Below the pieces are notes generated by a model that searched no databases, was not told the DNA's origin, and saw only the letters and a program-made list of their open reading frames with translations. Below, one piece after another: positions 4,102 through 20,542 of a DNA stretch of 64,000 nucleotides. Made by a program: the position numbers and the translations under genes. The stretch lies in the IMG/VR virus record IMGVR_UViG_3300032770_000013, positions 31,989-95,988 of that record. One strand, 5' to 3'. The stretch comes from a virus. How positions within the stretch are numbered: the stretch's first letter is position 1; each line of letters opens with the position of its first letter.

Positions 4102-5070
4102 TTATGTCTTCACTAATGGTAAGAAGGAAACGATTGTCGGCTGGACGTTCCCGGACGCGCCACTAAAAGCATTCCGGACGGTAACTGACGTAGTGATGTT
4201 GGCGTAACCTGTCGCGCTATTCAGTCCAGATCCACGGATGACGGGGGCTATGCCTGCGCTATACGGCGAAACTGAGGTGGTAAGTCCGAGATCATGTTGG
4301 TGCCCGCTATCTGTCGAGGTCGCAACAGCGGTATGGTTATGCAGTTGCGGATTATCATCGCCGCCGGCCGAGGCCATCGCACTGCCGTTAATGCCACAAA
4401 CGCTAGGACTCAATCGGCCCGTGCCGACACCATCATAGCCGACTCTCGCCCGCGCGAGCTCGTCCGGCACGGCAAAGGTTAATCCCGGTGTGCCTCCGAA
4501 GGCGTTTCCGAGAACTGAAGCCAGCGCCGGATATGTTGAATTGTTGTAAACTGCGCCGTTCTTGATGAGATAAGGAATGACCGTGCACAGCAGCATCCAC
4601 TTGGGATAATAGGTTGCACCCTGTAAATCATATGCAGTGCCCGGGTCTGGCGCGTTGACAAAGTCCATATTCGTGCCATCGTTGAAGACGTGGCACTTCT
4701 TTCCATAGGGTATCCCAATCGCATTCCCAGCCCCGCCGCTCAGCAGTTGCACGCCATGCGTCGTCGGTGTGCAAAGGTTCTGCACAATGAAGAAGCCAGC
4801 CCGTGGGAAAGTAACTTGGACGTCACCGGTAAGCACTCCGGTAAAGACAATCAGCGAGCTTTGCGATTGATACGGTCCGCTCCAAGCCGCTCCGCTATTC
4901 GGCGGCGTGCTCAGCGTCACCGGCCCGCTCGATAGGCTGATCGTCGCTACGTTGCCGAAGAGGCTGTCAATTGCTCCAAAGTTGGCATTATTGGGCAAAT
5001 CCCAGGTGCCCACGTCCGAGCCCCTTGTCGGCTGGTAGATTTGGATATTGGCTGTCTGTGGATCTGCCAC
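4102..5070 (-). CDS. Tail fibre/baseplate-like protein with tail-collar domain
   Basis: YLIKNGAVY...YPALASVLG...FAVPD, SAGG...HNH, NVQPTIV...VKT collar motifs. Confidence 0.75.
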   Translation of the reverse strand: MADPQTANIQIYQPTRGSDVGTWDLPNNANFGAIDSLFGNVATISLSSGPVTLSTPPNSGAAWSGPYQSQSSLIVFTGVLTGDVQVTFPRAGFFIVQNLCTPTTHGVQLLSGGAGNAIGIPYGKKCHVFNDGTNMDFVNAPDPGTAYDLQGATYYPKWMLLCTVIPYLIKNGAVYNNSTYPALASVLGNAFGGTPGLTFAVPDELARARVGYDGVGTGRLSPSVCGINGSAMASAGGDDNPQLHNHTAVATSTDSGHQHDLGLTTSVSPYSAGIAPVIRGSGLNSATGYANITTSVTVRNAFSGASGNVQPTIVSFLPLVKT

Positions 5071-5082
5071 GGGTTATCCTTC

Positions 5083-5793
5083 CTAAGCGCGCGGCGGCGT
5101 GGCAATCGGGTTTGGTTGTTTTGGCGTCCAACCTTGCGACTGATACCGTTTGCGCATTTCCTCAGTGTTTGCAGATGCCCACAAATCCTGATAGTGTTTT
5201 GACCAACTCGACGAACCTTGCGGATCGTCTGTAAGAGCGCCGAAGTCTTTCAAATAGCCATAACCAAATATGAGAGATTCTGCTAGGAAAAGGTCCGGCA
5301 GATACAAACTCAAATAAGTTTGCGGGTTAGTAGCACTCAATGGCGTTGGTCTAATTGTCCCGATAACCTCCATCGTGTATGCCGCATCTGGAGGTGGCCC
5401 TACAATGATTGTCTGGTCCGTTATCATCGCGTAGTATTGCGGGACCGATGGCGTTGTTGTTGCCGTCTCGTTGCCCCACATCCAATCGATGAACTCGCGC
5501 GAGGTCGGCACAAGCTGAACGCGATTGCTGGAGTTGAGCGGATAAAAGACATTCATGCTCTCAGTAACAACAAACCGTCCTTGGTCCTGAGGTAGCGTGA
5601 AGCTGCGACTATTAGGTGTAAGAGTCGCGCTGGAATCTACAATTACAGAATTTAAAATATCTAATTCTCTGAGGATTCTTTGCTCGGAATCGTCGATCAC
5701 ATTCGGCAAAAATGTTTGAAAATTCGGGTCATTCTGAGGAATGACCAGCATGTTGGCCAGCGACTGAACGTATGTCGTATAGGTAAGGCTCAT
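5083..5793 (-). CDS. Conserved virion (head-tail adaptor-like) protein; contains the inferred guide target region at 5653-5697
   Basis: IDDSEQRILRELD, PQYYAM, GPPPDAAY and TYLSLYLPDLF motifs; position among structural genes. Confidence 0.65.
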   Translation of the reverse strand: MSLTYTTYVQSLANMLVIPQNDPNFQTFLPNVIDDSEQRILRELDILNSVIVDSSATLTPNSRSFTLPQDQGRFVVTESMNVFYPLNSSNRVQLVPTSREFIDWMWGNETATTTPSVPQYYAMITDQTIIVGPPPDAAYTMEVIGTIRPTPLSATNPQTYLSLYLPDLFLAESLIFGYGYLKDFGALTDDPQGSSSWSKHYQDLWASANTEEMRKRYQSQGWTPKQPNPIATPPRA

Positions 5794-5811
5794 ATAACTT
5801 CCCGATAAATA

Positions 5812-5843
5812 GGAAAGGCCGCCACGTTAGCGACGACCTTTCC
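5812..5843 (-). terminator. 12-bp stem-loop at the 3' end of the putative guide RNA (terminator or processing hairpin)
   Basis: Minus strand GGAAAGGUCGUC-GCUAACGU-GGCGGCCUUUCC followed by UAUUUAU; two G-U pairs form only on the minus strand. Confidence 0.6.
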
Positions 5844-5849
5844 ACCCCT

Positions 5850-5927
5850 ATCAGACCGGAACTCACCAGAACTCACCCGAGCTAACCATAACCGACCTGA
5901 TCTCACCGCATCTCGTCTCACCATAAC
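5850..5927 (-). ncRNA. 5-nt-periodic GNY-NN array; putative guide RNA of the Cas7/RAMP-like protein
   Basis: Minus strand: gtt AT ggt GA gac GA gat GC ggt GA gat CA ggt CG gtt AT ggt TA gct CG ggt GA gtt CT ggt GA gtt CC ggt CT gat; 16/16 triplets are G-N-Y and 7 are GGT. Confidence 0.75.
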
Positions 5928-6115
5928 AAATGTTGACGAGAAAGAAATTTGGCGAGGATGCGCCGGACGGCCTCGGAACGGGTAGGCTTGTCCTCTTGAG
6001 TTTGCCTCCATTGATCGATCGCACCGCGTAATTTCACAGGCAATCTTATCGCGGTCACAGGGTCTTGACCTGTCTGCGGCCTTCCTCTTTTTCGTACTAC
6101 AGGTATTGACCCCAT
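5918..6115 (-). CDS. Ribbon-helix-helix (CopG/Arc-like) regulator
   Basis: RKRGRPQTG...VTAIRLP...IDQWR...TRSEAVRRIL; divergent from the HNH/RAMP pair. Confidence 0.8.
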   Translation of the reverse strand: MGSIPVVRKRGRPQTGQDPVTAIRLPVKLRGAIDQWRQTQEDKPTRSEAVRRILAKFLSRQHLLW

Positions 6116-6134
6116 AGCCTATTTGTAATACACT
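6106..6134 (+). promoter_or_regulatory. Sigma70-like promoter for the HNH-RAMP operon
   Basis: TTGACC(6106-6111)-N17-TACACT(6129-6134), upstream of ATG 6162. Confidence 0.5.
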
Positions 6135-6161
6135 TATGCCGCTGAAACAAGACGGCAGAAG

Positions 6162-6593
6162 ATGACCTACGAAGAATACATCCGTTCGCCGCAATGGCAC
6201 GCAAAACGCGAACTTGCCCTTGCAAGGGACGGATTTCGTTGCCGAGCATGCGATGCAACCGAAAATCTTGAGGTTCACCATCGGCGCTATCCCAAAATTC
6301 TTGGCACGGAAAAAGTAGACGATTTGACAACGCTCTGCGGCGGCCAAAACGGCTGCCACATGGCCATCACTAATCTCCTTCGATCTCGCAGACATGCCTT
6401 GGCGACCATCGAGGCTTCCACAACAGTCCGAATCAGCATTGGACGCATAGAGGTATCTCATGAACTACAAGAACCTGAAATTTCGGATACGCAGCGTTGC
6501 ACCCCTGCTCATGCACAACGGGCAACTGGCGGACCCACTGAACCACCATGTGAAAGAAATGCGCAAGATTACGAGCAAGCGGATCAAAACTGA
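6162..6593 (+). CDS. HNH endonuclease, overlapping the RAMP-like gene
   Basis: YEEYIRSPQW..KR...RDGFRCRAC...LEVHHRRY...DLTTLC...CH. Confidence 0.8.
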   Translation: MTYEEYIRSPQWHAKRELALARDGFRCRACDATENLEVHHRRYPKILGTEKVDDLTTLCGGQNGCHMAITNLLRSRRHALATIEASTTVRISIGRIEVSHELQEPEISDTQRCTPAHAQRATGGPTEPPCERNAQDYEQADQN

Positions 6594-7026
6594 TTCCGAC
6601 TTGGAACAACTTGCCAAGCTGGAATGGTTCGGCTCGCTTTACATCAGCAACGGCGTCCCATGCTTGCCTGGAGAACTCGTAGAGGCGACGTTTGTCAACG
6701 CCGCCAAAAAGACCAAACGAGGCCAACAAGCTAAAGCCGGCATAATTTCGGACGGCTTTTGGCCAGTTGAATACGATGGGCCAAAAGACTTGGAAGAAAT
6801 GTGGAAAGATGGACGGTTTCGGCTCACTACCGCCGTTCGCGTATAGCGCAACAAGGTTATGAGGACACGACCGATCTTTCGACAGTGGGAATCCACTATC
6901 CAAATCGACTACCTGCCGGATCAATTGGGCGTCAACGAGATCACAGATATCGTCGCCATCATGGGACGATTGATTGGCTTCGGCGATTGGCGTCCGCGTT
7001 TTGGACGCTTTGAAATCGTCTCTTGA
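6460..7026 (+). pseudogene. Stand-alone Cas7/RAMP-like protein (188 codons) interrupted by one in-frame TAG at 6844-6846
   Basis: N-terminal IRSVAPLLMHN...LADPLN; reading through TAG gives RNKVMRTRPIFRQW...LIGFGDWRPRFGRFEIVS*, a Gly-rich C-terminal loop of RAMP type; SD GAGGT before ATG. Confidence 0.7.
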
Positions 7027-7058
7027 CCGCATCGCCCCACGTCACCCTTAGCCCCGCT
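7026..7058 (-). repeat. Second short, degenerate 5-nt-periodic array
   Basis: Plus strand acc GC atc GC ccc AC gtc AC cct TA gcc CC gct; same polarity as the main array. Confidence 0.4.
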
Positions 7059-7624
7059 TATTCCTCGATCTGCATGGGAACCATGCGGCCGACCTCCTTA
7101 ACCACGCGAGGCCGCACGCGGTCATCCTCCCGCGTCATCTCGCCCTTCGGCGTTTTGCCGAGGCGCTGTTCGGCTTCCCGGATTTGGCGGTTGGCGAGTT
7201 GCTCATTCTCGGTCCGGGCCTCATCGGTCAACTCTTTCGGCCGCTCCATGAGGATCAGGCCATCCTTGATGATGTGCGGCTTGTCGTAGCCCGGAGGCAA
7301 CGGCACCCAATCCGGATGCTGCCGCGGGTCGACGGGCAACCAGCCCTGCTCTTCCATGCGGGAGAGATAGAACGGATCATCGGCGCCGACGTTGCTGAAG
7401 CGCTTCCATTCCACCGATACGTCGGACGGAATCTTATCGAGATTGACCGCATCGAACGGATTGACCTGGACCGAGGCGCTACGCTGCCGGGTGCGTTTCC
7501 GCGGCGCATCGTGCTCGGCTACATGCTCGGTTTCCCGGGCATCGGGCGGCGGTGCTGCCGCATGTTCCGGTGTGCGATCGGCATTGCGACGCTGACGCCG
7601 CTGGGCAACTGTCTCGGGTTCCAT
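7058..7624 (-). CDS. Conserved head-module hypothetical protein
   Basis: IPSDVSVEWKR...EQGWLPV...DGLILMERP; follows the scaffold-like gene. Confidence 0.7.
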   Translation of the reverse strand: MEPETVAQRRQRRNADRTPEHAAAPPPDARETEHVAEHDAPRKRTRQRSASVQVNPFDAVNLDKIPSDVSVEWKRFSNVGADDPFYLSRMEEQGWLPVDPRQHPDWVPLPPGYDKPHIIKDGLILMERPKELTDEARTENEQLANRQIREAEQRLGKTPKGEMTREDDRVRPRVVKEVGRMVPMQIEE

Positions 7625-7636
7625 GATCTTTTCCTT

Positions 7637-8740
7637 TTAATATCCAACTCGGCCAATTTTTCCTTCAGCCGTAGCCTTCACAAGCTCGGCCGCATAGGTG
7701 CCAAAGGCCCGCTTGCGGTGTGCTGCCTCATCCTCGCCCTGCTTGGCCGGATAGGAGAACAGCGCGACTTCCTGCTGCTGCGGATTAAGCTGAACCCGCT
7801 GGCGCTGGCTCTGGCCGGTAGACGCAGACGGCGCCTCGCGCGTAACCGGCGCCGATGGCACCGCACGTTGCTGGGTCTGCCGCTGGACTGGTTGCTTGGT
7901 GGCTTGCTGGTGCGCCTCCTCGCCTGCCGGCTTGACATCAGCCGCAGCCGATACCGGCGCACGCGCGCCAATGCTTTCCTCGATCACCCTGAAATAATCC
8001 GGGGTATCTGTCGCAAATCCCTGTTCGATCGCCGCATAATGACCTTTCATCATCGCGGCGTTCTTTTTCGCATCGCCGCCGACTTGCACCGGAACACATT
8101 CAGGATGAGCCCGCAGCCACGCCTGAGAGGCCGGCGTGTATCCAGACACGTATTGCTCAAACGGTGAAAGGCGCGTTTCGACCTGAGTAGTCGTGCGCGT
8201 AGCATCTGCGGCCTGCCGCGCCGCCTTGTTCTCCAAGGCAACTTTATCTGCCTCCAACCGGTCGATCGCCGCGGCAAGCTTGGCGGCTTTGATCTGCGCC
8301 TTGGCTTCCTTCGCAATCTCGCCGGCTTCCTTGGCGTGGATGACTTCGGCTTCCACCGCCTCTAGTTCGCGGGTAGCCGCTTCAAGCCGCGCCGTGACGC
8401 CGTTCAACTGGCTGCTGGCGGCTTCCTCGACGGCTTCCTGCGCCCGCTGCTCGCTTTGCTGGGCCCGCTGTGCCGCTTCATTAGCTCGCAACCGCTCGGC
8501 TTGGGCGGTCTGCTGGGCGGCAATGCGATCCTGCTTTTCCTTTTCCAGCGCCGCCTTCAACGCATCCGCCGCCTCGTCCGCGGCATTCTTTGCCGGCGGC
8601 GCTACTGGAGTCTTTGGCTCAGGCTCCGGTGTCTTGGCCTCAGTCACCTTCGCCGGCTCGACAACCAGATCGCCGTCGACCTCGACCTCGATAACCGTGT
8701 CGTCCTCAATCTCGACTTCGCGTGTGCCAGATTCGGCCAT
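7637..8740 (-). CDS. Capsid scaffolding-like coiled-coil protein
   Basis: Acidic N-terminus, Ala/Glu coiled coil, AWLRAHP...TPDYF...VQLNPQQQEVA. Confidence 0.6.
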   Translation of the reverse strand: MAESGTREVEIEDDTVIEVEVDGDLVVEPAKVTEAKTPEPEPKTPVAPPAKNAADEAADALKAALEKEKQDRIAAQQTAQAERLRANEAAQRAQQSEQRAQEAVEEAASSQLNGVTARLEAATRELEAVEAEVIHAKEAGEIAKEAKAQIKAAKLAAAIDRLEADKVALENKAARQAADATRTTTQVETRLSPFEQYVSGYTPASQAWLRAHPECVPVQVGGDAKKNAAMMKGHYAAIEQGFATDTPDYFRVIEESIGARAPVSAAADVKPAGEEAHQQATKQPVQRQTQQRAVPSAPVTREAPSASTGQSQRQRVQLNPQQQEVALFSYPAKQGEDEAAHRKRAFGTYAAELVKATAEGKIGRVGY

Positions 8741-18991: not shown

Positions 18992-19369
18992 CTAAATCGT
19001 AATGACGGGAGAACTGACCTCAGCCCGATCAGGCCAATATGGAAAACTGATCGCAGCCCGAGGTTCTGCTGCATCTATGTCATAGGCCAATTTGCCATCA
19101 TGGAATCGCGAGTCTTTGAACACGGTGCCGCATCGCTTATTTTGGAAAACGCCGTCAGCGACCTTGACCCATTCGTCATCGGCGCCGGTCAATGGCGCAA
19201 GCGGCTTCCCAGCAATACACCGCATCAGAACCGGTGCGACAGCGTGGACAGCGCCTCCGCTGTCCCATTGACCGAAGAACTTTTCCAGTATCTCGATCAT
19301 TACTCGGCTATCTTCTTCGCCGAAGTTGATTGCGGCGAGTTCGGTTTTAGCTTGGTCAACGATGCTCAT
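18992..19369 (-). CDS. Hypothetical cassette-like protein
   Basis: PLAPLTGADDEW...FQNKRC motif; bounded by repeat sites. Confidence 0.65.
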   Translation of the reverse strand: MSIVDQAKTELAAINFGEEDSRVMIEILEKFFGQWDSGGAVHAVAPVLMRCIAGKPLAPLTGADDEWVKVADGVFQNKRCGTVFKDSRFHDGKLAYDIDAAEPRAAISFPYWPDRAEVSSPVITI

Positions 19370-19376
19370 AGTCCCT

Positions 19377-19405
19377 CCTCGCGTTTATAAGTCCTTAGAG
19401 CGCGC
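19377..19405. repeat. Intergenic site D (near-identical to 53800-53827)
   Basis: Minus strand GCGCGCTCTAAG-GA-CTTATAAACGCGAGG. Confidence 0.75.
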
Positions 19406-19802
19406 TCGCTCGATCTCGCGACGCGCTATTTCACGGCATTTTCTTTTTGACCATTCCCTTCGCTGACGTGGACCCTCTGCTCGTTCCTCGCGGCGAAGCG
19501 TCAGAAATGCCCGGTGGATCGGATCGGGCCACCGTTGTGTTTTCATTTCGGAACCTCACGATTCTCAATGCGGCGATAGCAGTCTGGATGATATTTCCTA
19601 TGATCGACCTGAATCATCGGACCTTCGCCGAGCGGATTTCGACAAGCTGCGCATGGGATGGCGCTGATGATCGCTCCAAGAAAACACTCAAACCGCTGCA
19701 CCGATGGCTCCGGCTCGTAATATCCATCCCTGTGCCTGCCGTAAATCATCAGAATTTGCCCTCGTCCTTACCTCGCTGTTTCACGCCGACGCGATGACTG
19801 GA

Positions 19803-20291
19803 TCACAGAAACACATCGAGGCGACCGGCCTCTATATTGGCGATGGCCTCTCGTAGCCTCTGAGCTTTGTCAGCGGCCATGCGTTCTTCGGATTCGGCAC
19901 GCTCTAGCCTATAGCGCGCCGATTGAAGCATTTTCGTCAGACTTCGCTTGGCGCCCTTGCGCAGATAGAAATTATCGCGACTCGAATTGGAATGGTTGAG
20001 GTTCACAATGTCCGCATCATCGTAGTAATCAGCCTGGTGCTCACTGGACTTTTCGAGGTCCGCGAGATTGCCCAAGTGCTCCAACGTCAACGCCGGCAGA
20101 TCGGCTTCTGCAAAGGATCGACCGTCATTGCCGCTGCCCCAAAAGGTATCTCGCAGCCGACCATTCTTGACGACGGCTATGCAGGAACAACAATGGTAGC
20201 GACCCCATGAACCGTCGCGCTCAGGGTCGGGTTCGCGAAAGCGCCAACGATAAATGTCGCCTTCCCGCAACTTCTCTGAAACTTCTGCCAT
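19803..20291 (-). CDS. Hypothetical cassette-like protein
   Basis: First ORF after the 45-bp leader repeat. Confidence 0.6.
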   Translation of the reverse strand: MAEVSEKLREGDIYRWRFREPDPERDGSWGRYHCCSCIAVVKNGRLRDTFWGSGNDGRSFAEADLPALTLEHLGNLADLEKSSEHQADYYDDADIVNLNHSNSSRDNFYLRKGAKRSLTKMLQSARYRLERAESEERMAADKAQRLREAIANIEAGRLDVFL

Positions 20292-20329
20292 CGCTCGCCT
20301 CTGTTTCGCCGCCTCGCGTCTAAGCGATA

Positions 20330-20374
20330 ACTGACGGGCGCTTTGATTTCATTGATCTGCGCACACACACTGCC
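20330..20374. repeat. 45-bp exact direct repeat, copy 1 (copy 2 at 54332-54376)
   Basis: ACTGACGGGCGCTTTGATTTCATTGATCTGCGCACACACACTGCC at both loci. Confidence 0.9.
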
Positions 20375-20392
20375 TTAGAGCGCACCCATCGA

Positions 20393-20542
20393 TTACCCGA
20401 CTCCACGCCGCGCCGTTCCGAGGTCAGGATAACGTATTATCTCTTGATGCACGGACAAGTCCACTTCCTCAAGGTTAACGCGCCCAAGCCGATGAGGAAT
20501 AAATCCCCGCCACTCTATCGTGCCTATCCGGTTGTCGCTCAT
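20393..20542 (-). pseudogene. 49-aa ORF: diverged duplicate of the C-terminus of the 21597-22784 protein
   Basis: MSDNRIGTIEWRGFIPHRLGRVNLEEVDLSVHQEIIRYPDLGTARRGVG vs VEWGGFIYAVPHRSGRIYLEEIDLGKHPEIMRYSDLSEARR. Confidence 0.65.

What the first reader, a model, noticed from the sequence alone, without database searches (positions are those of the whole stretch)
5812..7058. Compact RHH + HNH + Cas7/RAMP-like + periodic-RNA cassette: candidate RNA-guided homing or inter-phage interference system
Seen: a ~1.25-kb insert in the late operon contains a divergent RHH gene reading into the array, a plus-strand promoter, an HNH gene overlapping a RAMP-like gene (PLLMHN...GDWRPRFGRF), and periodic arrays on both sides. 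There is no cas1/cas2 and no CRISPR repeat-spacer array. Established: Cas7-type RAMPs polymerise on guide RNA with a fixed nucleotide period, and free-standing phage HNH genes home by cutting a neighbouring conserved gene in relatives. I recall recent reports of phage stand-alone Cas7-like proteins with GGY/NN-periodic RNAs (called VIPR), but cannot verify them here. Inference: one subunit binds per 5-nt unit and the HNH is the effector, making a programmable free-standing homing element.
Basis: partly seen in the sequence, partly recalled or inferred. Interest (0 to 1): 0.92.

Follow-up and report, generated by a model that had tools for sequence, protein, structure and literature searches.

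The report
Phage VIPR cassette aimed at rivals
This is a real example of VIPR, a CRISPR-like RNA-guided system of phages published in 2026; its single guide RNA spells a conserved stretch of the head-tail adaptor gene of rival related phages, while the phage's own neighbouring copy is recoded and the guide-binding protein gene carries a premature stop.

Summary
The cassette is real and is a member of a known kind.

**Identity.** The read-through 188-aa protein matches the solved SUSP1 Vipr protein (PDB 36pp, E 8.5e-26). Its predicted fold matches Csm3/Cmr4.

**Guide RNA.** On the minus strand, 5927->5853, lie 15 five-base GNY/NN units. They are followed by the GGGTG-hairpin-CCTTTCC tail typical of the HNH-linked Vipr clade.

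**HNH gene.** It is a conserved partner: 94 of 160 vipr loci have it directly upstream. It overlapped the vipr start out of frame in all 31 loci measured.

**Target.** Under the published 1-nt-skip rule, the guide matches codons 33-47 (IDDAEQRIYRELDLL) of the adaptor gene of related phages at 28-29 of 30 positions. Seventeen public contigs match 28 fixed bases exactly, all in frame.

**Self-avoidance.** The phage's own adaptor gene starts 12 nt after the vrRNA's T-rich end. It matches only 21/30, partly through CGN>AGA and CTN>TTA switches.

**Caveats.**
- vipr has an in-frame TAG at a conserved Gln, upstream of the thumb arginine and the G-loop, so it may be dead.
- The vrRNA lies on the opposite strand to vipr, which is atypical.
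- The right-hand "array" is not confirmed.
- Homing by HNH cleavage remains an untested inference.

This scan has already found HNH-linked VIPR loci, and self-avoidance through six-fold codons, in other genomes.

The parts
5853..5927 (-). vrRNA guide region. It has 15 five-nt units GNY/NN (GGT in 7 units, GAY/GTT/GCT in 8). The NN string is AT GA GA GC GA CA CG AT TA CG GA CT GA CC CT. Units 1-2 overlap the RHH stop codon (5918-5920).
   Evidence: Sequence read. Genome-wide filter. Target decoding.
5805..5852 (-). vrRNA 3' tail: GATAG GGGTG, then a 14-bp hairpin (5843->5812) whose base is GGAAAGG/CCTTTCC, then TATTTAT. It probably also acts as the terminator.
   Evidence: Terminator-like hairpin; fold. 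The same GGGTG-A(A)AGG-hairpin-CCTTTCC ending is seen on vrRNAs of relatives L015, L018, L019, L029 and L032. The 'NN' of these two units (AG, TG) do not match the target.
5918..6115 (-). 65-aa ribbon-helix-helix-like gene, divergent from HNH-vipr and co-directional with the vrRNA. It is probably a local regulator.
   Evidence: Pfam RHH_1 E 0.1. tblastn relatives sit in the same divergent position in L016/17/97, L096, L099, L155 and L172. It is not general to the clade.
6106..6134 (+). Sigma-70-like promoter match (TTGACC-17-TACACT) in front of HNH-vipr.
   Evidence: One site was found against 1.2 expected in shuffles, so this is weak.
6162..6593 (+). HNH nuclease gene (vap-like partner). CxxC...HH...C...CH are all present. 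Its last 134 nt overlap vipr in another frame.
   Evidence: Alignment A2: invariant C27, C30, H39, H40, C59, C65, H66. Profile against PDB: IscB HNH 4.5e-10, Cas5-HNH 2.5e-7. 11 of 17 family members hit PF01844. PHROG HNH families. The out-of-frame overlap was present in all 31 loci measured.
6460..7026 (+). vipr (RAMP protein, 188 codons) with an in-frame amber codon at codon 129.
   Evidence: PDB 36pp_D SUSP1 Vipr, E 8.5e-26, residues 5-186 against 3-187. phrog_4652, 3e-47. 992 relatives, the listed ones mostly 187-190 aa. AF2 pLDDT 87. Foldseek top hits are Csm3/Cmr4.
6844..6846 (+). TAG where 10 of 12 aligned relatives have Gln (VRVQRNRVMRTRP). It lies at the tip of the thumb hairpin, upstream of R137 and the G-loop GDWRPRFGRF.
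   Evidence: Residue roles come from the SUSP1 structure paper. TAG ends 18 of 83 long ORFs of the genome, so there is no TAG recoding. No tRNA gene in the window.
7027..7057 (.). 31-nt spacer between the vipr stop and the stop of gene 7058-7624.
   Evidence: Sequence read. It did not pass the array filter.
5653..5697 (-). Own counterpart of the guide's target: codons 33-47 of the adaptor gene (IDDSEQRILRELDIL). It matches 21 of 30 guide positions.
   Evidence: It is the best 1-nt-skip match in the whole 96-kb genome (23/34 against 21 for the next).
5083..5793 (-). Head-tail adaptor gene (SU10 adaptor family), immediately downstream of the vrRNA.
   Evidence: Pfam PF24175, 4.2e-21. phrog_2941.
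7058..7624 (-). Upstream late gene (188 aa, no family). It is the other border of the variable slot.
   Evidence: Homologues lie upstream of the adaptor gene in L010, L013 and L190, with other small genes in between.

Best explanation
This is a VIPR (Viral Interference Programmable Repeat) cassette of the HNH-linked kind. It occupies a variable slot between two late genes of a complete ~96-kb phage, whose host is probably an alphaproteobacterium.

**Inferred from the SUSP1 work, not tested here.** Vipr protomers bind the vrRNA one per five-base unit. They hide G-N-Y and present the 15 NN dinucleotides. The filament then reads double-stranded DNA while skipping every third base.

**Shown here.**
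- The NN string equals codon positions 1-2 of a conserved 15-codon motif of the head-tail adaptor gene of related phages.
- The skipped base falls on the wobble position.
- The vrRNA has the sense of the adaptor mRNA, so it can pair with the template DNA strand but not with the mRNA.
- The phage's own adaptor allele, which starts 12 nt after the vrRNA's T-rich end, is the worst match of all alleles sampled.

**Inferred.**
- In mixed infection the complex binds the rival's adaptor gene, and the conserved HNH partner cuts or blocks it. This excludes the rival.
- The tight linkage of guide and resistant allele keeps the two together.

**State of this copy.** It carries an amber codon in vipr, so the protein is probably inactive now. 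The vrRNA would then be either a relic or a 'solo' guide that needs another Vipr. The vrRNA also sits on the opposite strand to vipr. One inversion of the RHH-HNH-vipr block would produce this layout from the usual one.
For: **Identity**
- Sequence match to the solved SUSP1 Vipr. All RNA-contact residues named in the structure paper are conserved: H19, K32, R137, D176, W177, R178.
- RAMP fold.
- The vrRNA tail is shared with relatives.
- HNH lies directly upstream of vipr in 94 of 160 loci. The conserved frame overlap was present in all 31 loci measured.

**Target**
- In all 14 adaptor-gene relatives found by protein similarity, the best 1-nt-skip hit of the guide is the homologous site. Scores are 23-29/30 against 15-19 for the next-best hit in each locus.
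- A pattern of 28 fixed bases finds 15 IMG/VR and 2 GTDB contigs. All hits are at codons 33-47 of adaptor homologues of only 45-69% identity, and all are in frame.
- Chance expectation is about 3e-6 per 1e11 bases (arithmetic).
- Other skip lengths give no such hit in the own genome.

**Self-avoidance**
- The own allele scores 21/30, the lowest of 22 distinct alleles.
- Four of the nine mismatches are synonymous family switches: two AGA and two TTA. These codons make up 10% of Arg and 6.4% of Leu codons genome-wide.
- Both TTA codons, and two of the three AGR codons, of the whole gene lie inside the 15-codon site.

**Absence in targets**
- None of the 31 target-bearing loci has vipr, HNH or RHH next to the adaptor gene.

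**Precedent**
- Wobble-aligned targets, lower self-match and solo vrRNAs are described for type II VIPR.
Against: - vipr has a stop at codon 129, before the thumb arginine and the G-loop. TAG is a normal stop in this genome. As encoded, the cognate protein is truncated.
- Only 7 of 15 guide units have the canonical GGY, against roughly 80% in close relatives. In SUSP1, perturbing GGY abolished silencing.
- The vrRNA is on the strand opposite to vipr. Among 160 loci, 147 have same-strand arrays and 11 have opposite-strand ones, mostly short. No promoter for the vrRNA was detected.
- Expression, RNP formation, DNA binding and HNH cleavage were not tested. The mismatch tolerance of the system is unknown, so 21/30 being 'safe' is an assumption based on the preprints' 80% bioinformatic cut-off.
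- Some relatives also carry AGA or TTR at single positions of the site. Not every own mismatch therefore needs to be an escape.
Confidence: 0.8

Rival explanations
1. RNA-guided homing. The Vipr-vrRNA filament recruits the HNH nuclease to cut the cassette-free adaptor allele of a co-infecting relative. Repair from the cassette-bearing genome then copies the cassette, together with the resistant 5' part of the adaptor gene, into the rival. This follows the logic of free-standing phage homing endonucleases.
For: - The target lies 108-152 nt from the cassette, in the adjoining gene. It is the best match in the whole 96-kb genome.
- The own allele is diverged at the site.
- All target-bearing relatives lack the cassette.
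- The slot between the two late genes is variable in relatives.
- HNH catalytic and zinc residues are intact and conserved.
- In other HNH-linked loci, 12 of 122 vrRNAs have significant near-matches (64-86%) to DNA within about 1 kb. The figure is 3 of 124 in loci without HNH (Fisher p 0.014).
- For 11 of those 15 sites, the guide register coincides with the longest open frame.
Against: - No cassette-free genome near-identical to this phage was found, so no empty site or conversion tract could be shown.
- Linkage of guide and immune allele is also favoured under plain exclusion.
- The flanks available for other loci were only 3-5 kb, so 'near' is partly forced there.
- The VIPR papers held do not contain the word homing, and they describe silencing for type II.
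- vipr is broken here.
Confidence: 0.25
2. Decayed relic or solo guide. The amber codon has inactivated the cognate Vipr. Either the cassette is non-functional, or its vrRNA is loaded by another Vipr. That could be the phage's own second, intact Vipr (31% identical) or the Vipr of a co-infecting phage, as described for solo vrRNAs of vipr-null phages.
For: - TAG sits at a conserved Gln. No suppressor tRNA is present. TAG is used as a stop.
- A second VIPR cassette with an uninterrupted 204-aa Vipr lies 17 kb away in the same genome.
- The residues that bind G-G-Y are shared by both proteins, apart from Phe in place of Trp177.
- Solo vrRNAs are documented in 346 vipr-null phages.
- The layout is atypical, with the vrRNA inverted.
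Against: - G1, Y3 and 29 of 30 NN positions of the guide are intact. This argues against long neutral decay.
- If eight random changes were spread over G1 and G2, all eight falling on G2 has p 0.001.
- HNH and RHH are intact.
- A single C>T change, or an assembly or population variant, cannot be excluded.
- The tails of the second cassette's vrRNAs differ, and cross-loading is untested.
Confidence: 0.45
3. Pure transcriptional silencing without cleavage, as shown for type II VIPR. The filament sits on the rival's adaptor gene and blocks late transcription. The HNH has another role, or none, at the target.
For: - SUSP1 VIPR represses transcription from either strand and protects against lambda without a nuclease.
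- The target lies inside an essential late gene.
Against: - HNH is the conserved partner of this clade, and its gene overlaps vipr.
- The preprint itself infers target destruction for the nuclease-bearing types.
Confidence: 0.2
4. The periodicity is a chance or compositional feature, or a CRISPR-Cas fragment, and the genes are unrelated neighbours.
For: None beyond the weakness of single-sequence Pfam hits.
Against: - There are 17 in-phase units, a tail shared with relatives, and a decoded target found in 17 independent contigs.
- No Cas1 and no CRISPR array are present.
Confidence: 0.01

Closest known systems
VIPR systems with a nuclease partner (HNH Vap; by the text of bioRxiv 10.64898/2026.04.26.720920 most likely type III)
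   Same: - Vipr protein plus one vrRNA of five-base G-G-Y/NN units with a structured 3' tail.
- An HNH gene as the second gene.
- No cas genes and no CRISPR array.
- The guide matches viral sequences by the 1-nt-skip rule.
   Different: - The preprint places the nuclease types mainly in defence islands of cells. This copy sits in the late operon of a phage and aims at sibling phages.
- The vrRNA is on the opposite strand, behind an RHH gene.
- G2 of the unit is degenerate in 8 of 15 units.
- vipr carries an amber codon.
- The type could not be assigned formally, because the supplementary tables are not held.
Type II VIPR of Escherichia phage SUSP1 (PDB 36pp; bioRxiv 10.64898/2026.04.26.720927 and 10.64898/2026.10.15.759431)
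   Same: - Homologous Vipr (about 34% identity over the full length) with the same RNA-contact residues.
- Wobble-aligned targeting of a conserved coding motif.
- Self-match lower than non-self match.
- Precedent for guides that outlive their vipr gene.
   Different: - The partner is an HNH nuclease, not the DNA-binding Vap1.
- The tail is a simple hairpin, not the SUSP1 pseudoknot.
- There is one guide instead of four.
- The target is a structural gene of related phages, not a satellite recombinase.
Cas7-family RAMPs of type III CRISPR-Cas (Csm3/Cmr4)
   Same: RRM core, thumb hairpin and glycine-rich loop. They are the best structural matches (Foldseek E 2e-5, TM 0.4-0.5).
   Different: - Only 10-16% sequence identity.
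- No other cas genes, no Cas1 and no CRISPR array.
- The period is five bases, with three bases sequestered, rather than six with one base flipped.
Free-standing HNH homing endonucleases of phages (for example the T-even seg/mob genes; from general knowledge)
   Same: - A small nuclease gene inserted between conserved genes.
- The recognised site lies in the neighbouring gene of cassette-free relatives.
- The carrier's own site is diverged.
   Different: - Recognition here would be supplied by an RNA-protein filament, not by the nuclease itself.
- Neither cleavage nor mobility has been shown.

Membership tests
VIPR system | Vipr protein: a RAMP homologous to the described Vipr family, with RRM core, thumb and G-loop | tested here: met
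   - PDB 36pp_D SUSP1 Vipr, E 8.5e-26, over the full length.
- H19, K32, R137 and GDWRP conserved.
- AF2 model pLDDT 87 with a thumb hairpin at 121-140.
- Csm3/Cmr4 are the top structural matches.
- Caveat: an in-frame TAG at codon 129.
VIPR system | vrRNA: tandem five-base units with conserved G-G-Y (or a related consensus) alternating with variable NN, followed by a conserved structured 3' tail | tested here: met
   - 15 guide units plus a tail.
- The tail motif is shared with vrRNAs of relatives.
- G2 is G in only 7 of 15 units, so the consensus here is GNY.
VIPR system | Minimal locus without cas genes or a CRISPR array | tested here: met
   No Cas1 in the complete virus record. No CRISPR-like repeats. 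No Rfam hit in 5000-8000.
VIPR system | Accessory vap gene next to vipr | tested here: met
   HNH lies directly upstream and overlaps vipr. It is present in 94 of 160 vipr loci.
VIPR system | Natural targets found by the 1-nt-skip rule at 80% NN match or more, with wobble-aligned skip bases and no self-target at 80% or more | tested here: met
   Rival adaptor genes match at 28-29/30, in frame. The own genome's best match is 21/30, or 70%.
VIPR system | The vrRNA is transcribed and co-purifies with Vipr, and the RNP binds DNA | not testable with these tools
No wet-lab data are available.
VIPR type III (HNH Vap) | Placement in the type III clade of the published Vipr phylogeny | not testable with these tools
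   The supplementary tables and tree are not held. The assignment rests on the text: HNH among the Vaps of types II, III and VII, nucleases in types III-V, and single-vrRNA loci.
CRISPR-Cas (Cas7 of a class 1 effector) | Encoded with other cas genes and a CRISPR repeat-spacer array | tested here: not met
   The neighbours are phage late genes.
Free-standing homing endonuclease | Nuclease gene inserted between conserved genes, absent from relatives | tested here: met
   The cassette lies between gene 7058-7624 and the adaptor gene. It is absent from the loci of all 31 relatives, and the slot is variable.
Free-standing homing endonuclease | Cleaves the cassette-free allele near the insertion point, and the cassette spreads by repair | not testable with these tools
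   Only the location of the recognised site (108-152 nt from the cassette) and the divergence of the own allele are shown.

The most novel reading that the evidence does not exclude
HNH-linked VIPR cassettes are RNA-guided homing elements. Their vrRNA is tuned to the cassette-free allele of the gene next to the insertion point. The HNH cuts that allele, and repair copies the cassette plus the recoded resistant allele into rival phages. The same logic would explain why guides of HNH-linked loci, more often than those of other VIPR loci, resemble flanking genes in frame.
Probability: 0.25. Interest if true: 0.8.

Novelty: new member of a known kind. Interest (0 to 1): 0.5.

Why it matters
VIPR was described only in 2026, and almost all experiments concern one E. 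coli phage family with a DNA-binding partner. This locus adds four things.

- **A fully decoded natural case for the nuclease-linked kind.** The guide, its conserved target motif in at least 17 rival phage contigs, and the resistant self allele all lie within 300 bases of each other.
- **A limit on the wobble-skip argument.** Skipping the wobble base does not close every silent escape route. Arg and Leu six-fold codons let the carrier, and in principle a rival, change positions 1-2 without changing the protein.
- **A testable hypothesis.** The closeness of target and cassette, and the enrichment of such near-self matches in HNH-linked loci, suggest that these cassettes behave like programmable homing endonucleases.
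- **A possible snapshot of decay.** The broken vipr beside an intact guide may show the route towards solo guides.

Tried and rejected
- **Exact 30-base guide pattern in IMG/VR:** no hit. Unit 14 (CC) mismatches every known target (CT/TT). Leaving that unit open gave 15 + 2 hits.
- **Single-sequence locus search with the Vipr protein:** nothing. The alignment-based search worked.
- **Complex prediction of Vipr with HNH,** using the intact pair from L096 with alignments A3/A4: score 0.27, below the mark, no verdict. It is not used as evidence either way.
- **The look-up of encoding contigs:** The contexts of the closest Vipr relatives (P0002, P0003; 70-71%) could not be fetched.
- **The look-up of sequencing runs:** Neither the TAG polymorphism nor vrRNA expression could be checked, and read laying was not used.
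- **Rfam:** no family in 5000-8000. No hammerhead in seven relatives' loci, despite a conserved CTGATGA-containing spacer between two vrRNAs in L019 and L026.
- **Inverted repeats at the borders of the RHH-HNH-vipr block,** which would support an inversion: none convincing.
- **RHH as a general component of the clade:** rejected. It was found by tblastn in 9 of 160 loci, and a profile search of divergent upstream ORFs added none.
- **PADLOC:** no defence-system model for Vipr or RHH.
- **Genome-wide TAG recoding:** rejected. TAG ends 18 of 83 ORFs and there is no tRNA gene.
- **Second array at 7027-7057:** rejected as too short and near chance.
Full report
**What is there**

The window belongs to a single 95,988-bp IMG/VR virus record. 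It is rated 100% complete, has 55% G+C, and ends are classed as linear.

Two minus-strand late genes flank the block. One is gene 7058-7624. The other is the head-tail adaptor gene 5083-5793 (Pfam SU10_adaptor, E 4e-21). Between them lies a 1.25-kb block with four parts:
- an RHH-like ORF (6115->5918);
- an HNH ORF (6162-6593);
- a 188-codon ORF (6460-7026) interrupted by TAG at 6844-6846;
- a five-base periodic tract on the minus strand.

**The protein is a Vipr**

- Read through the TAG, the protein (P0001) matches chain D of PDB 36pp, 'SUSP1 Vipr protein'. E is 8.5e-26, over residues 5-186 against 3-187.
- It belongs to phrog_4652 and has 992 relatives. The best 120 are listed, most of them 187-190 aa, with up to 71% identity.
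- The residues that hold the G-G-Y bases and the target backbone in the SUSP1 cryo-EM work are H17, K33, R138, D177, W178 and R179. They align with invariant H19, K32, R137, D176, W177 and R178.
- An AlphaFold2 model (pLDDT 87, pTM 0.81) has the RRM core and a thumb hairpin at 121-140. Foldseek finds only Csm3/Cmr4 subunits at the top (E 2e-5).
- The record has no Cas1 and no CRISPR-like array.

So this is a Vipr, the stand-alone RAMP of the VIPR systems published as preprints in 2026. It is not a Cas7 of a CRISPR locus.

**The guide RNA**

- On the minus strand from 5927 to 5853 there are 15 units of the form G-N-Y-N-N.
- Next come GATAG GGGTG, then a 14-bp hairpin (5843->5812), then TATTTAT.
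- In the whole genome, only this site and a second VIPR cassette pass a simple phase filter.
- vrRNAs of relatives, just downstream of their vipr genes, end in the same way...AG GGGTG A(A)AGG, a hairpin, CCTTTCC. The last two 'units' are therefore tail, not guide. This tract is a cognate vrRNA of this clade.

**The HNH partner**

- The HNH family has invariant CxxC, HH, C and CH residues.
- Its profile hits the HNH domains of IscB (4.5e-10) and of Cas5-HNH Cascade (2.5e-7).
- Among 160 vipr loci from IMG/VR and JGI metagenomes, 94 have this HNH directly upstream.
- In all 31 loci measured, the HNH frame runs 104-239 nt (mostly 134-146) into vipr, always in the same relative frame. This is a conserved gene overlap.
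- The preprint lists HNH among the Vap domains and assigns nucleases to types III-V. Type III is the likely label, but I could not test it.
- RHH is an occasional extra, found in 9 of 160 loci and always divergent from HNH.

**What the guide reads**

The published rule replaces each G-G-Y by one free base. Applied here, it gives ATn GAn GAn GCn GAn CAn CGn ATn TAn CGn GAn CTn GAn CCn CTn.

- In the phage's own genome, the best match of any skip length other than the array itself is codons 33-47 of the adjoining adaptor gene (5697->5653). It scores 23/34 with the tail units included, against 21 for the next-best hit.
- I fetched 14 adaptor-gene relatives by protein similarity (52-74% identity). 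In every one, the best hit is the homologous site. Scores are 23-29 of 30, against 15-19 for the next-best hit in each locus.
- A pattern with unit 14 left open (28 fixed bases) finds 15 further IMG/VR contigs and 2 GTDB contigs. One of the GTDB contigs is a 945-kb contig of an uncultured alphaproteobacterium.
- All of these hits lie at the same codons of adaptor homologues of 45-69% identity. All are in frame, and all encode IDDAEQRIYRELDLL. Chance expectation is about 3e-6 per 1e11 bases.
- The skipped base is the wobble base.
- The vrRNA has the sense of the mRNA. It can therefore pair only with the template DNA strand, which fits DNA targeting.

**Self-avoidance**

- The own allele (IDDSEQRILRELDIL) matches 21/30. 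This is the lowest of 22 distinct alleles. Of the 11 alleles found without reference to the guide, 9 reach 24/30.
- The nine mismatches come from seven codons. Three are amino-acid changes (five mismatched positions). The other four are single-base synonymous switches, CGN>AGA twice and CTN>TTA twice.
- AGA is 10% of Arg codons and TTA 6.4% of Leu codons in this genome. Both TTA codons, and two of the three AGR codons, of the whole gene lie inside the site.
It also agrees with the preprints' finding that self matches stay below 80%.
- It qualifies the claim that wobble skipping blocks silent escape, because six-fold codons remain a silent route.
- An earlier report of this scan made the same point on another genome (e1-5842230).

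**What is odd about this copy**

1. *The amber codon.* TAG replaces a Gln present in 10 of 12 aligned relatives. TAG is a normal stop here and no tRNA is encoded. As written, the protein lacks the thumb arginine and the G-loop.
2. *The strand of the vrRNA.* It lies on the strand opposite to vipr, behind RHH. Of the 160 loci, 147 have same-strand arrays and 11 have opposite-strand ones, mostly short. The closest relative (L096, 66%) has the usual order: RHH<, HNH>, vipr>, vrRNA>. One inversion of the three-gene block would give the present order. I found no border repeats to support this.
3. *Degenerate G2.* Only 7 of 15 units are GGY. From unit 5 onwards, GGT and G(A/T/C)Y alternate strictly. 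Changes are confined to G2, which has p 0.001 if they were spread at random over G1 and G2.

The guide itself is intact (29/30 to its targets). Decay, if it has begun, is recent, or the RNA is used by another Vipr. The same genome has a second, uninterrupted Vipr (204 aa, 31% identical) with five vrRNAs at 19,044-20,464. Solo vrRNAs in vipr-null phages are documented.

**Interference or homing**

- None of the 31 target-bearing loci carries the cassette.
- In relatives that share the flanking gene, the slot holds other small genes.
- The recognised site is 108-152 nt from the cassette.
- Across other loci, 12 of 122 vrRNAs of HNH-linked systems have significant near-matches (64-86%) to flanking DNA. 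The figure is 3 of 124 for loci without HNH (p 0.014).
- For 11 of those 15 sites, the guide register coincides with the longest open frame (p 0.002).

This is what a homing element would look like. However, tight linkage of guide and immune allele is also expected under plain exclusion, the flanks searched were short, and no cleavage or transfer has been shown. I rate homing at about 0.25.

**Verdict**

This is a genuine member of the known VIPR kind, nuclease-linked, in a phage late operon. The guide is decoded, its rival target is known, and the self allele is recoded. The cassette is partly rearranged and may be inactivated. The scan has reported HNH-linked VIPR loci in at least 12 other genomes.

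Noticed in passing
outside the window: genome 19,044-20,464 (L095:2045-3465); vipr2 at L095:2426-3037 (-): A second VIPR cassette lies in the same phage. It has an uninterrupted 204-aa Vipr (31% identical to the first; PDB 36pp E 2e-7), no HNH match nearby, and five GGY/NN tracts on its own strand with GGYRAGG plus U-run or hairpin tails. Under the 1-nt-skip rule, tract B's best genome hit is vipr2 itself (19/28, next 18). The last tract's best hit lies about 200 nt away (19/26, next 17). Both are weak.
   Followed up: partly
window 6460-6593; L015-L059 (31 loci): The HNH gene ends 104-239 nt (mostly 134-146) inside vipr, always in the same relative frame. This holds in all 31 relatives measured, down to 31% HNH identity. 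It is a conserved long out-of-frame gene overlap.
   Followed up: yes
window 5843-5907 (-): From unit 5 to unit 17 the constant triplet alternates strictly between GG(T/G) and G(A/T/C)Y, giving a 10-nt super-period (TRF period 10). G-N-Y with a free middle base is not among the variant consensus forms named in the preprint (NNNGG, YNNNG, NNNNG). The reason is unknown.
   Followed up: partly
window 5628-5748 (adaptor codons ~15-55): An AT-rich patch (45-nt windows at 0.29-0.42 G+C, against 0.42-0.64 in the rest of the gene) surrounds the guide's own-allele site. The wobble positions are AT-rich too, although the guide does not read them. This could be a conversion tract or a way to disfavour R-loop formation. 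It is unexplained.
   Followed up: no
L190:3182-3745, L010:3485-4000, L013:353-1411: In relatives that share the upstream late gene, the slot before the adaptor gene holds different small co-directional genes. L190 has a ~170-aa ORF with a Tat-like signal. L013 has two ORFs. L010 has two small ORFs, one of them RHH-like. The slot is a hot spot for accessory genes.
   Followed up: partly
L019:3650-3720 and L026:3680-3745: A conserved ~60-nt element containing CTGATGA and a hairpin separates two vrRNAs in two relatives. It has no Rfam match, and no hammerhead was detected. It may be a processing signal.
   Followed up: partly
L019, L020, L024, L026, L031, L036, L059, L114, L119, L126, L128, L145: In these HNH-linked VIPR loci, a vrRNA has a significant near-match (64-86% of NN) to DNA within about 1 kb of the array, mostly in frame with a long ORF. 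Some reach 80% or more, which is above the preprints' self-target cut-off.
   Followed up: partly
L193 (G001:C1:5199-5567): One of five complete or near-complete related phages that carry the guide's target also encodes a distant Vipr (E 1.8e-14, 201-aa frame) elsewhere in its genome. The other four have none.
   Followed up: no
window 6847-6861: Twelve bases after the amber codon lies the conserved Met codon (ATG 6859), preceded by AAGG. Termination and re-initiation would give a split Vipr (1-128 plus 134-188). This is pure speculation and was not tested.
   Followed up: no
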